Shown here one piece after another: positions 1-1,616 of a DNA stretch of 1,616 nt. The DNA comes from Escherichia coli (GTDB taxonomy: Bacteria; Pseudomonadota; Gammaproteobacteria; Enterobacterales; Enterobacteriaceae). The first letter of the stretch is position 1. The number at the start of each line of letters is the position of its first letter. The position numbers were made by a program, and so were the translations under genes. Where the stretch lies: assembly GCF_003334255.1 (NCBI RefSeq), contig NZ_QOWU01000153.1; one strand, written 5' to 3'. The notes beneath the pieces are model-generated. The model worked only from the letters and a program-made list of their open reading frames with translations, searched no databases and was not told the origin of the DNA.

Positions 1-351
1 AACCAGATGGACCCGGTGTACACGCCGGCGCGAAAAATCCACCTGTACCACTGCGACCATCGCGGCCTGCCGCTGGCGCTTGTCAGCACGGAAGGGGCAA
101 CAGAATGGTGCGCAGAATACGATGAATGGGGCAACCTGCTGAATGAAGAGAACCCGCATCAGCTGCAGCAGCTTATCCGCCAGCCGGGGCAGCAGTATGA
201 TGAGGAGTCCGGCCTGTATTACAACCGCCACCGCTATTATGACCCGCTGCAGGGGAGGTATATCACTCAGGATCCGATTGGGCTGAAGGGGGGATGGAAT
301 TTTTATCAGTATCCGCTGAATCCGGTTCAGTATATAGATTCAATGGGACTG
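1..351 (+). other. Conserved Rhs core C-terminal segment, ending in the PxxxxDPxGL-type demarcation/autoproteolysis motif ([10 protein letters not shown], nt 322-351)
   Basis: YD-repeat-like RYYDP (aa 76-80), DPIGL (aa 89-93) and PxxxxDxxGL (aa 106-115) are read directly from the translation. The segment is GC-rich (about 58% by hand count over nt 1-60), unlike everything downstream. Confidence 0.85.
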
Positions 352-810
352 GCATCAAAATATGGACACTTAAATAATGGCGGATATGGAGCGAGACCCA
401 ACAAACCGCCTACGCCCGATCCAAGTAAATTGCCGGACATAGCGAAACAATTAAGACTGCCATATCCTATTGACCAGGCCAGTAGTGCGCCTAATGTTTT
501 CAAAACATTCTTCAGAGCATTAAGCCCTTACGACTACACACTGTATTGCAGGAAGTGGGTAAAACCAAATCTGACTTGTACGCCACAGGATGATTCCCAG
601 TATCCAGGGATGGATACAAAGACAGCAAGTGATTACCTGCCACAGACAAATTGGCCAACAACTCAATTACCACCAGGATATACTTGTGCAGAACCCTATT
701 TATTCCCAGACATTAATAAACCCGATGGGCCAGCAACAGCAGGGATAGATGATTTGGGTGAAATTTTAGCTAAGATGAAACAGAGAACATCGAGAGGAAT
801 AAGAAAATGA
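1..810 (+). CDS. Rhs-family polymorphic toxin, 3' portion of the gene (5'-partial): conserved core terminus plus variable C-terminal toxin domain
   Basis: Frame 1 is open from nt 1 (aac cag precede the ATG at 7), so the listed ATG is an internal Met and the gene continues upstream. The translation ([12 protein letters not shown]...[47 protein letters not shown]) is the hallmark C-terminal end of the enterobacterial Rhs/YD-repeat core. Stop TGA at 808-810. Confidence 0.9.
352..810 (+). other. Variable Rhs C-terminal (CT) toxin domain, about 152 aa, activity not recognisable; Pro-rich linker followed by a roughly 110-aa C-terminal module
   Basis: It begins immediately after the DSMGL motif, where Rhs proteins carry their polymorphic toxin tips. 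Composition drops to about 45% GC (hand count over nt 421-480). A Pro-rich stretch ([30 protein letters not shown], aa 128-157) precedes a Cys-containing module (C181, C191, C227). I see no HNH, deaminase, ADP-ribosyltransferase or other familiar catalytic motif. Confidence 0.75.
792..799 (+). promoter_or_regulatory. Shine-Dalgarno / ribosome-binding site for the immunity ORF, embedded in the 3' end of the toxin ORF
   Basis: GAGAGGAA at 792-799, with the AGGA core ending 8 nt before the ATG at 807. Consistent with translational coupling. Confidence 0.5.
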
Positions 811-863
811 AAAGAGTTTTGTTCTTTTTGCTGATGATATTTGTTAGTTTTGGTGTTATAGCT
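807..863 (+). other. Predicted Sec signal peptide of the immunity protein (possible signal peptidase I cleavage after VIA, aa 19); a non-cleaved signal anchor is the alternative
   Basis: MKR positive n-region, a 14-residue hydrophobic h-region ([14 protein letters not shown]) and small residues at -3/-1 (V-I-A) before DC. It is not a lipobox, because the residue before Cys21 is Asp. Confidence 0.5.
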
Positions 864-1376
864 GATTGCGAAATACAAGCTAAAGATCATGATTGTTTTA
901 CTATTTTCGCTAAGGGTACTATTTTTTCCGCGTTTCCTGTCTTAAATAATAAAGCCATGTGGAGATGGTATCAGAATGAGGACATCGGTGAGTATTATTG
1001 GCAAACAGAACTGGGTACATGTAAAAATAATAAATTCACACCAAGCGGGGCGAGACTCTTAATTCGCGTCGGGTCACTACGCCTTAATGAAAATCATGCC
1101 ATCAAAGGAACGTTGCAGGAGTTGATAAATACAGCAGAAAAAACGGCGTTTCTCGGCGATCGGTTTAGAAGTTATATAAGAGCGGGTATCTATCAAAAAA
1201 AGAGCAGTGATCCAGTTCAGTTGTTGGCAGTCCTTGATAATTCAATCATGGTAAAATATTTTAAAGATGAGAAACCAACTTATGCTCGAATGACAGCACA
1301 TCTCCCGAACAAAAATGAGTCTTACGAATGTTTAATAAAGATACAGCATGAACTAATTCGTAGTGAAGAGAAATAA
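807..1376 (+). CDS. Putative cognate Rhs immunity protein (RhsI-like), 189 aa, with N-terminal signal peptide or membrane anchor
   Basis: The ORF lies immediately downstream of the Rhs CT with a 4-bp ATGA overlap (start 807-809, toxin stop 808-810), the canonical toxin-immunity arrangement. A Shine-Dalgarno-like GAGAGGAA sits 8-15 nt upstream. The N-terminus [19 protein letters not shown] has a basic n-region, a hydrophobic core and a VIA motif. The region is very AT-rich (about 30% GC by hand count over nt 841-900). Confidence 0.75.
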
Positions 1377-1601: not shown

Positions 1602-1616
1602 ATGGAACTTAAAAAA
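1602..1616 (+). CDS. Possible start of a downstream gene (3'-partial, only 5 codons visible: MELKK)
   Basis: ATG at 1602 preceded by an AAGGTGA RBS-like motif, after about 225 bp of AT-rich non-coding sequence. Too short to assess coding potential or identity. Confidence 0.3.

What the first reader, a model, noticed from the sequence alone, without database searches (positions are those of the whole stretch)
322..351. Demarcation motif reads PxxxxDSxGL, with Ser in place of the canonical Pro
The motif that ends the Rhs core is normally PxxxxDPxGL; its Asp and the Asp of the upstream DPIGL are thought to form the aspartyl-protease site that releases the toxin tip. Here the second motif is DSMGL (codon tca at 340-342, one base away from the Pro codon cca), while DPIGL (aa 89-93) is intact. 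This could be harmless natural variation or could alter autoproteolysis efficiency. I am relying on memory for the canonical state in close homologues.
Basis: partly seen in the sequence, partly recalled or inferred. Interest (0 to 1): 0.4.

Follow-up and report, generated by a model that had tools for sequence, protein, structure and literature searches.

The report
Natural Ser variant of Rhs cleavage motif
The serine is real, but it is an ordinary natural variant of the motif where Rhs toxins cut off their toxic tip; it is inherited with this tip, also sits on intact full-length E. coli Rhs genes, and shows no sign of being a defect.

Summary
Observation confirmed. Bases 322-351 encode [10 protein letters not shown] in frame 1, with Ser (tca) at 340-342. 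DPIGL lies 22 residues upstream, and the NCBIfam RHS core models end exactly at the Leu.

The window is identical to E. coli G1/2. There it is the 5'-truncated orphan rhs fragment (K-12 ybfO) downstream of rhsC-ybfB, followed by ybfC.

The Ser is not a lesion.
- Core homology with rhsC ends near base 324 and GC drops from 57% to 43%, so the Ser codon belongs to the tip module.
- About 3500 of 5426 complete E. coli genomes carry this tip. None has the Pro codon.
- About a quarter of carriers have it on an intact 1399-aa PAAR-Rhs.
- Tip relatives in Salmonella and Phytobacter keep Ser (TCG/TCA). One has Pro (CCA) and one Ala.
- Among 204 distinct Rhs junctions, the residue after the second Asp is Pro 88%, Ser 5%, Ala 3%.
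- The RhsH-type gene (1421 aa; its tip is in about 1000 genomes) has DSLGL.

Published mutagenesis covers only the two aspartates, which are intact here. Whether Ser changes the cleavage rate is untested.

Verdict: a known locus and a tolerated minority form of the motif. Low interest.

The parts
1..351 (+). 3' end of the Rhs core: the C-terminal plug / aspartyl autoprotease region. It is in frame 1 and the ORF runs off the left edge of the window.
   Evidence: NF041261 RHS_core positions 1146-1261 of 1261 match aa 2-117, and TIGR03696 matches aa 40-117. Pfam RHS PF03527 matches aa 13-49. About 95% DNA identity to K-12 rhsC up to about base 324. PDB Rhs structures align over aa 10-124.
271..285 (+). 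First dyad motif DPIGL; the first catalytic Asp is at 271-273.
   Evidence: It aligns with the DPIGL of P. protegens RhsA in the 7Q97 alignment. The two aspartates whose Asn substitutions block cleavage in that protein, D1324 and D1346, are 22 residues apart, the same spacing as here.
322..351 (+). Demarcation motif [10 protein letters not shown]. The second catalytic Asp is at 337-339 and the Ser in place of the usual Pro is at 340-342. The predicted scissile bond follows Leu 349-351.
   Evidence: The cleavage position is inferred from RhsA (density ends at W1350, 4 residues after D1346) and Rhs1 (toxin starts 5 residues after D1338).
352..810 (+). Variable toxin tip, 152 aa ([16 protein letters not shown]...RGIRK) plus stop codon. 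Function unknown.
   Evidence: GC drops to 43% and homology to rhsC is lost from about base 325. No Pfam, NCBIfam or PDB sequence match. The family is limited to Escherichia, Salmonella, Phytobacter and metagenome sequences at 66-76% identity.
807..1376 (+). ybfC, 189 aa, the presumed cognate immunity gene. Its ATG overlaps the tip's stop codon (ATGA). The N-terminus looks like an export signal.
   Evidence: Annotated as protein YbfC in all genomes examined. YbfC-like ORFs of 57-67% identity follow the tip homologues in other genera. The N-terminal 15-aa hydrophobic stretch scores 2.99 on the Kyte-Doolittle scale. No Pfam, NCBIfam or PDB match.
1602..1616 (+). Start of the truncated ISAs1-family transposase fragment ybfQ.
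   Evidence: Annotation of K-12 J53 and G1/2 at the corresponding coordinates.
182..182 (+). Rare natural SNP, A instead of T. It gives Gln instead of Leu in the conserved RLPGQQYD segment of the core. It is not part of the finding.
   Evidence: It is the only difference from K-12. The exact 66-mer occurs in 3 of 5426 genomes.

Best explanation
The window is the end of an orphan Rhs toxin/immunity module at the E. coli rhsC locus: the K-12 ybfO fragment plus ybf[11 protein letters not shown] is the Rhs demarcation and autoproteolysis motif of that module. The Ser after the second catalytic Asp is a natural, long-lived, tip-linked variant of the usual Pro. It is encoded inside the low-GC tip cassette, not in the shared core, so it moves with the tip when tips are exchanged by recombination. 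In the orphan state (this copy, and about three quarters of carriers) no full-length protein exists and the motif is idle. When the fragment recombines with a main rhs gene (about a quarter of carriers), it becomes the end of a 1399-aa PAAR-Rhs. I infer that D1221 and D1243 then cut after L1247 and release the 152-aa tip, and that the exported YbfC protein neutralises that tip. Shown here: the sequence, the genomic context, the module boundary, the population and cross-genus distribution, and the frequency of Ser. Inferred: that cleavage still occurs with Ser, that the tip is toxic, and that YbfC is its immunity protein.
For: Identity and context: 100% match to G1/2, where the fragment is annotated as a 5'-truncated pseudogene after rhsC-ybfB; K-12 has the same layout. 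Motif position: the core HMMs end at the Leu. Tip linkage: homology to rhsC ends at about base 324 and GC falls from 57% to 43%. Population: at least 80% of the window is present in 3516 of 5426 genomes, and no full-length exact match to the T340C (Pro) version was found among 3244 genomes. Full-length carriers: intact 1399-aa ORFs with a PAAR-type N-terminus and DSMGL in E2865, 300709, O157:H7 H2495 and KOr021, the last at the rhsB locus. 14 of 54 evenly sampled carriers are named 'RHS element core protein', consistent with 2647 genomes having the ybfB-orphan junction. Cross-genus retention with a synonymous change: TCA in E. coli and Phytobacter, TCG in Salmonella enterica; CCA (Pro) in S. 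salamae and GCT (Ala) in a metagenome. Each is followed by a YbfC homologue. Frequency: 204 distinct junctions give P 88.2%, S 5.4%, A 2.9%, others 3.4%. Ser occurs in 6 of 93 enterobacterial tip clusters, several with Pro-bearing sister tips, and in 2 of 84 Pseudomonas-type junctions. An independent case: the RhsH-type gene, 1421 aa and intact, has DSLGL with codon TCT, and its tip is in about 1000 genomes. Mechanism: in the papers read here only the two aspartates were mutated, and they proved essential. Both are present here with the canonical 22-residue spacing.
Against: No experiment on any DSxGL Rhs was found, so normal cleavage is an inference. All Rhs/Tc structures found by sequence, in the alignments shown, have Asp-Pro. 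Pro is strongly preferred (88%), so it probably contributes something. The protein samples are biased towards fragments and orphans, because 50% clustering collapses full-length Rhs proteins. My motif regex required Asp and Gly, so it cannot report on those positions. Little diversity exists in this tip within E. coli (96-100% identity), so the absence of Pro revertants is weak evidence of selection. In O157:H7 H2495 the linked ybfC has a frameshift near its start, which could mean the module is not active there.
Confidence: 0.8

Rival explanations
1. The Ser weakens or abolishes C-terminal autoproteolysis. The tip is a decaying, cryptic cassette that drifts under relaxed selection because it mostly sits in unexpressed orphan fragments.
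For: About 75% of E. coli carriers hold it as an orphan. The Phytobacter homologue is an orphan downstream of a main rhs gene, the metagenome one follows fragmented rhs ORFs, and the two Salmonella ones lie on short contigs with unknown context. Pro is present in 88% of junctions and in every solved structure seen. ybfC is frameshifted in one O157:H7 full-length carrier.
Against: Ser is retained with a synonymous codon change across genera, while the tip and its YbfC partner stay intact and co-conserved. Intact 1399-aa fusions occur at two different loci. An unrelated main gene, RhsH (1421 aa, no stops), carries DSLGL, and its tip is in about 1000 genomes. Several tip families contain both Pro and Ser members.
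Confidence: 0.12
2. The Ser is adaptive. It tunes the rate or the trigger of tip release for particular tips, for example delaying cleavage until delivery, so that Pro/Ser/Ala switching is a functional dial.
For: Pro/Ser differences occur in at least four tip families, and Ser is the preferred replacement (11 of the 24 non-Pro cases). The literature notes that the timing of cleavage may differ between systems, with none detected inside E. cloacae cells.
Against: Ser shows no association with a particular first residue of the tip or a particular tip type. Ala, Leu, Val, Phe, Gln and Arg also occur, which looks like tolerance rather than design. There are no experimental data.
Confidence: 0.07
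3. The Ser is a sequencing or assembly error, or a private mutation of this isolate.
For: None beyond the fact that it is a single base away from Pro.
Against: Identical bases occur in more than 3200 complete genomes and in related tips from other genera.
Confidence: 0.01

Closest known systems
E. coli K-12 ybfO (rhsC-locus orphan rhs fragment) with ybfC
   Same: The same locus and gene order (rhsC, ybfB, orphan, ybfC, ybfQ). 1615 of 1616 bases are identical, and DSMGL is the same.
   Different: Only base 182 differs (Gln here, Leu in K-12). I found no paper on the function of either gene.
E. coli K-12 RhsC main protein
   Same: The core end is about 95% identical up to LNP, with the same DPIGL and the same 22-residue Asp-Asp spacing. 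In other strains the core fuses to this tip.
   Different: RhsC ends in PISNIDPLGL (GAT CCA) and carries an unrelated tip (ETLKCIKPLH...) with the YbfB immunity gene.
Salmonella Typhimurium LT2 rhs orphan (STM0292) system
   Same: A 5'-truncated core fragment plus tip plus immunity gene lies downstream of a main rhs gene. It is deployed after recombination with the main gene, and the same orphan tip is found on full-length genes in other strains (PMC3967940). Internal expression is also possible (PMC7043789).
   Different: A different tip and immunity protein. Recombination or expression of the E. coli orphan was not tested here. The window shows no promoter-like signal above chance.
Structurally characterised T6SS Rhs effectors: P. 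protegens RhsA (7Q97), P. laumondii Rhs1 (7PQ5), P. aeruginosa Tse5 (8CP6), Tse15 (8UY4)
   Same: A homologous C-terminal plug (E-values 1e-17 to 1e-24) and two aspartates in DPxGL-like motifs. Mutating either Asp blocks release of the tip.
   Different: In the alignments shown they have Asp-Pro in the second motif. Some end in Trp rather than Leu. Their tips are unrelated.
E. coli RhsH-type element (RHS core protein followed by dsORF-h1)
   Same: It also has Ser after the second Asp (PVRFIDSLGL), on an intact 1421-aa main gene. Its tip is present in about 1000 genomes.
   Different: A different core subfamily, a different tip (KFHVNGDPSDF...), a different Ser codon (TCT) and a different locus.

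Membership tests
Rhs / YD-repeat polymorphic toxin, C-terminal core region | Match to the curated RHS core models, ending at the demarcation motif | tested here: met
   NF041261 positions 1146-1261 of 1261 match aa 2-117 (E 2.9e-69). The whole-protein cut-off of 2000 bits cannot be reached by a fragment. TIGR03696 scores 82 bits against a cut-off of 32.5, over aa 40-117.
Rhs / YD-repeat polymorphic toxin, C-terminal core region | Two aspartates of the autoproteolytic dyad in D-x-x-G-L motifs about 22 residues apart | tested here: met
   D91 (DPIGL) and D113 (DSMGL) are 22 residues apart. The same spacing occurs in 198 of 204 junctions and in RhsA D1324/D1346.
Rhs / YD-repeat polymorphic toxin, C-terminal core region | Literal consensus PxxxxDPxGL | tested here: not met
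   Ser replaces the Pro after Asp, while P, D, G and L are all present. The consensus is not absolute: 11.8% of 204 distinct junctions lack this Pro. This therefore does not exclude membership.
Rhs / YD-repeat polymorphic toxin, C-terminal core region | A sharp switch to a low-GC, non-homologous tip right after the motif, followed by a small linked gene | tested here: met
   GC is 57% before the switch, 43% in the tip and 37% in ybfC. Homology to rhsC is lost from about base 325. ybfC overlaps the tip's stop codon and is co-conserved with the tip in other genera.
Rhs / YD-repeat polymorphic toxin, C-terminal core region | Autoproteolytic release of the tip after the motif's last residue | not testable with these tools
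   This needs protein chemistry. No published test of a DSxGL protein was found.
Full-length PAAR-Rhs T6SS effector | An N-terminal PAAR-type region plus a complete YD shell in one intact ORF | tested here: not met
   In the genome identical to the window, the fragment has 507 codons and is annotated as missing its N-terminus. The feature is met in other strains that carry the same tip (1399 aa, MSGKPAARQGD..., no stops).
Orphan rhs toxin/immunity module | A 5'-truncated core fragment with tip and immunity gene, downstream of a main rhs/immunity pair | tested here: met
   The order rhsC, ybfB, fragment, ybfC is seen in G1/2 and K-12. The ybfB-fragment junction is present in 2647 genomes.
Orphan rhs toxin/immunity module | The tip is toxic and is specifically neutralised by the downstream protein | not testable with these tools
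   The tip and YbfC have no family or structure match. The AlphaFold model of the tip was unusable, with mean pLDDT 45.

The most novel reading that the evidence does not exclude
Non-Pro residues after the second catalytic Asp (Ser above all) are not neutral. They could set a slower or conditional autoproteolysis, so that some Rhs tips stay tethered inside the shell until a later step of delivery. Pro/Ser switching within tip families would then be a simple evolutionary dial on the timing of toxin release.
Probability: 0.08. Interest if true: 0.4.

Novelty: already known. Interest (0 to 1): 0.12.

Why it matters
It matters little for biology. The locus is a long-sequenced E. coli K-12 orphan Rhs module, and the Ser is a tolerated minority state of a known motif.

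There are two practical points.

First, roughly one Rhs junction in eight lacks the 'canonical' Pro. Pipelines that find or cut Rhs tips with a literal DPxGL or DPxG[LWF] pattern, as in the preprint read, will miss these tips. That includes tips present in thousands of E. coli genomes.

Second, the role of the Pro in the autoprotease has apparently never been tested. Natural Pro/Ser/Ala sister tips provide ready-made material for that experiment.

Tried and rejected
1. Structure of the tip. AlphaFold2 with a 13-sequence alignment gave mean pLDDT 45 and pTM 0.28. That is unusable, so no fold search was run.

2. Sequence identification of the tip and YbfC. Pfam, NCBIfam and PDB searches gave nothing significant.

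3. Literature on ybfO, ybfC or rhsO. Only incidental mentions turned up. Searching 'DSxGL' gave no paper.

4. The word-indexed homologue search returned only short fragments. The exhaustive representative search shows only its best 150 hits, and its 50% clustering merges full-length Rhs proteins. The frequencies therefore come from fragment- and orphan-rich samples. I compensated by inspecting full-length genes in complete E. coli genomes.

5. An internal promoter like the Salmonella P2, whose start site lies 89 nt upstream of the motif. The consensus scan found no site there, and the total count was not above chance. This is not evidence of absence.

6. Rejected: sequencing error.

7. Rejected: that the rare base-182 change is linked to the Ser. 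All other carriers have T at 182 and still have Ser.

8. Looked for co-variation between the Ser and the first dyad motif, the first residue of the tip, or the x position of the motif. No pattern was found. Non-Pro residues never occur in both motifs together, but only 0.6 such cases are expected among 204 junctions.

Full report
WHAT IS IN THE SEQUENCE

Frame 1 of the window is open from base 1 to the stop codon at 808-810. Bases 322-351 read ccg gtt cag tat ata gat tca atg gga ctg, which is [10 protein letters not shown]. Ser (tca) is at 340-342. DPIGL is at 271-285.

The two aspartates are 22 residues apart. The NCBIfam models RHS_core (NF041261) and Rhs_assc_core (TIGR03696) both end exactly on the Leu of DSMGL. 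The stretch is therefore the genuine Rhs demarcation motif, with Ser where Pro is usual.

WHERE IT COMES FROM

The window matches the E. coli rhsC locus. It is 100% identical over all 1616 bases to strain G1/2. It differs from K-12 at one base, position 182.

In G1/2 and K-12 the gene order is kdp, ybfA, rhsC, ybfB, a 507-codon rhs fragment annotated 'missing N-terminus', ybfC, then ISAs1 remnants (ybfQ, ybfD). The window is therefore the 3' end of the K-12-type orphan fragment (ybfO), followed by ybfC at 807-1376 and the first bases of ybfQ. In this genome no full-length protein carries the motif.

THE SER BELONGS TO THE TIP CASSETTE

I aligned the window with the main rhsC gene of K-12. Identity is about 95% up to base 324. 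After that, only the codons of the conserved motif residues still match.

GC content is 57% for bases 1-321, 43% for 322-810 and 37% for ybfC. The Ser codon therefore lies about 16 bases inside the low-GC, tip-specific module. It is inherited with the tip, not with the core.

DISTRIBUTION IN E. COLI

At least 80% of the window is present in 3516 of 5426 complete genomes. I searched with a 70-base query spanning the motif in which T340 was changed to C, which gives Pro. It found no full-length exact match. The best full-length matches were 98.6% identical, that is one mismatch, across 3244 genomes. Ser is therefore effectively fixed for this tip in E. coli.

The orphan arrangement, detected by the ybfB-fragment junction, is present in 2647 genomes. 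In an evenly spread sample, 14 of 54 carriers have the tip under a gene that NCBI names 'RHS element core protein'.

I checked four such genes: E2865, 300709 and O157:H7 H2495 at the rhsC locus, and KOr021 at the rhsB/nikR locus. Each is a 1399-aa ORF with no internal stop. Each has a PAAR-type N-terminus (MSGKPAARQGD...). Each carries DPIGL at 1221 and [10 protein letters not shown] at 1238-1247, followed by the same 152-aa tip. Roughly a quarter of carriers thus have DSMGL on an intact full-length Rhs. This is the arrangement that main-orphan recombination produces in Salmonella (PMC3967940).

THE TIP FAMILY IN OTHER GENERA

Homologues of the tip at 66-76% identity occur in Salmonella, Phytobacter and metagenomes. 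Their junctions and codons are:
- PVSWTDSMGL with TCG, Salmonella enterica
- PVSWIDSMGL with TCA, Phytobacter
- PISWIDSLGL, an unnamed database sequence (P0010); codon not examined
- PIGWIDPMGL with CCA, S. salamae
- PIDWIDPKGL, JGI metagenome; codon not examined
- PVDMIDALGL with GCT, metagenome

Each of the four homologues whose DNA I fetched is followed by a YbfC-like ORF of 57-67% identity, with the same hydrophobic N-terminus. Ser has therefore persisted through about 30% divergence of the tip, with a synonymous change. Pro and Ala are also tolerated in the same family.

HOW COMMON SER IS IN GENERAL

I pooled three homology searches. Two were seeded with this core end. One was seeded with the distant P. 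protegens RhsA core end. I then reduced the hits to distinct junctions.

| Sample | Distinct units | Residue after the second Asp |
|---|---|---|
| Enterobacterial-type | 110 ten-residue motifs | P 96, S 8, A 3, F/V/L 1 each |
| Pseudomonas/Burkholderia/Snodgrassella-type | 84 junctions | P 75, A 3, S 2, L/Q/R/F 1 each |
| Pooled | 204 junctions | P 88.2%, S 5.4%, A 2.9%, others 3.4% |

Ser occurs in 6 of 93 enterobacterial tip clusters. At least four tip families contain both Pro and Ser members: the KF.V.GD type, the .LEDLCIIEG type, the ASTKLDG type and the V[DN][IS]NL[YF]P type. After the first Asp the residue is Pro in 97.5% and Ser in 2% of junctions.

The KFHVNGD tip with PVRFIDSLGL is an independent case. 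It belongs to the RhsH-type element. In strain 602354 the gene is an intact 1421-aa ORF named 'RHS element core protein', it uses Ser codon TCT, and it is followed by dsORF-h1. The tip is present in about 1000 genomes.

Caveats on these numbers:
- The samples are rich in fragments and orphans.
- The representative library merges full-length Rhs proteins.
- My regex fixed the Asp and Gly positions, so it cannot report on those positions.

MECHANISM

Published work assigns C-terminal cleavage to the two aspartates.
- P. protegens RhsA: D1324N or D1346N blocks cleavage, and the chain ends at W1350.
- P. laumondii Rhs1: D1338N blocks cleavage.
- Tse5: D1141A or D1164A blocks cleavage.

Consensus statements allow G followed by L, W or F, but always write Pro. 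All solved Rhs/Tc structures found by sequence have Asp-Pro in the alignments shown. I found no mutagenesis of the Pro and no study of a DSxGL protein.

Both aspartates, the Gly, the Leu and the spacing are intact here. Ser, Ala and other residues recur at this position in conserved and intact genes. The most likely reading is that the Pro is preferred but dispensable. On that reading, a full-length DSMGL Rhs cleaves after L1247 (after base 351 in the window) and releases the 152-aa tip. This last step is an inference.

THE REST OF THE MODULE

The tip has 21 Pro in 152 residues, three conserved Cys and a pI of about 9. It has no Pfam, NCBIfam or PDB match. Its AlphaFold model was unusable.

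YbfC starts with MKR followed by a 15-residue strongly hydrophobic stretch, and it has four Cys. These features are conserved in its homologues. They suggest an exported immunity protein, and hence a tip that acts in the cell envelope. This is an inference only.

VERDICT

The hinted defect is not supported. The Ser is a natural, tip-linked, recurrent minority form of the Rhs demarcation motif, in a long-known orphan toxin/immunity module of E. coli.

What remains open is purely quantitative: whether Ser changes the rate of cleavage. The practical lesson is that literal DPxGL patterns miss about 12% of Rhs junctions.

Noticed in passing
window 181-183 (base 182): The codon is cag (Gln) where K-12 and nearly all relatives have ctg (Leu), in the highly conserved core segment [24 protein letters not shown]. 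The exact 66-mer occurs in only 3 of 5426 complete E. coli genomes (G1/2, G6/7, G8). It is a rare natural SNP, in an orphan fragment.
   Followed up: yes
window 807-1376 (ybfC): The presumed immunity protein starts with MKR plus a 15-aa strongly hydrophobic stretch (signal-peptide-like) and has 4 Cys. These features are conserved in the Salmonella, Phytobacter and metagenome homologues (57-67% identity). This suggests an exported immunity protein and an envelope-acting toxin. YbfC has no Pfam, NCBIfam or PDB match.
   Followed up: partly
window 352-807 (toxin tip): The 152-aa tip belongs to no known family. It is Pro-rich (21 of 152), with three conserved Cys and a conserved GPATAGIDD segment. 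The family is confined to a few Enterobacteriaceae and metagenome sequences. The AlphaFold model had mean pLDDT 45.
   Followed up: partly
L006 5805-6375 (E. coli O157:H7 H2495): The full-length Rhs carrying this tip is intact, but ybfC has a 1-nt insertion in the T-run at codons 5-6 and is annotated as frameshifted. An in-frame ATG (MIFVSFG...) lies just downstream and might rescue translation. I did not check whether this is general to O157:H7.
   Followed up: partly
L007 1611-6376 (E. coli KOr021): The same tip and a YbfC homologue sit on a full-length Rhs at the rhsB/nikR locus instead of the rhsC locus. The cassette has therefore moved between rhs loci.
   Followed up: partly
proteins P0067, P0130, P0256, P0349: Ser also replaces Pro after the first dyad Asp (DSIGL) in 4 of 204 distinct junctions. 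It is always paired with a canonical second motif.
   Followed up: partly
L009 950-7119 (Phytobacter ursingii): The Phytobacter homologue of this tip is also an orphan, downstream of a split main Rhs (947 + 293 aa) that carries a DUF4329 tip and an Imm-NTF2-2 immunity gene. Its YbfC-like gene is broken into 32-aa and 142-aa ORFs.
   Followed up: no
protein P0142 (Delftia acidovorans): A short Rhs-end protein whose C-terminal roughly 50 residues weakly resemble the end of this tip (LP.G..C...L..D...PG....A..DD..E....K...RT.RG.R). Overall identity is 36%. It may be a distant relative of the tip outside Enterobacteriaceae.
   Followed up: no
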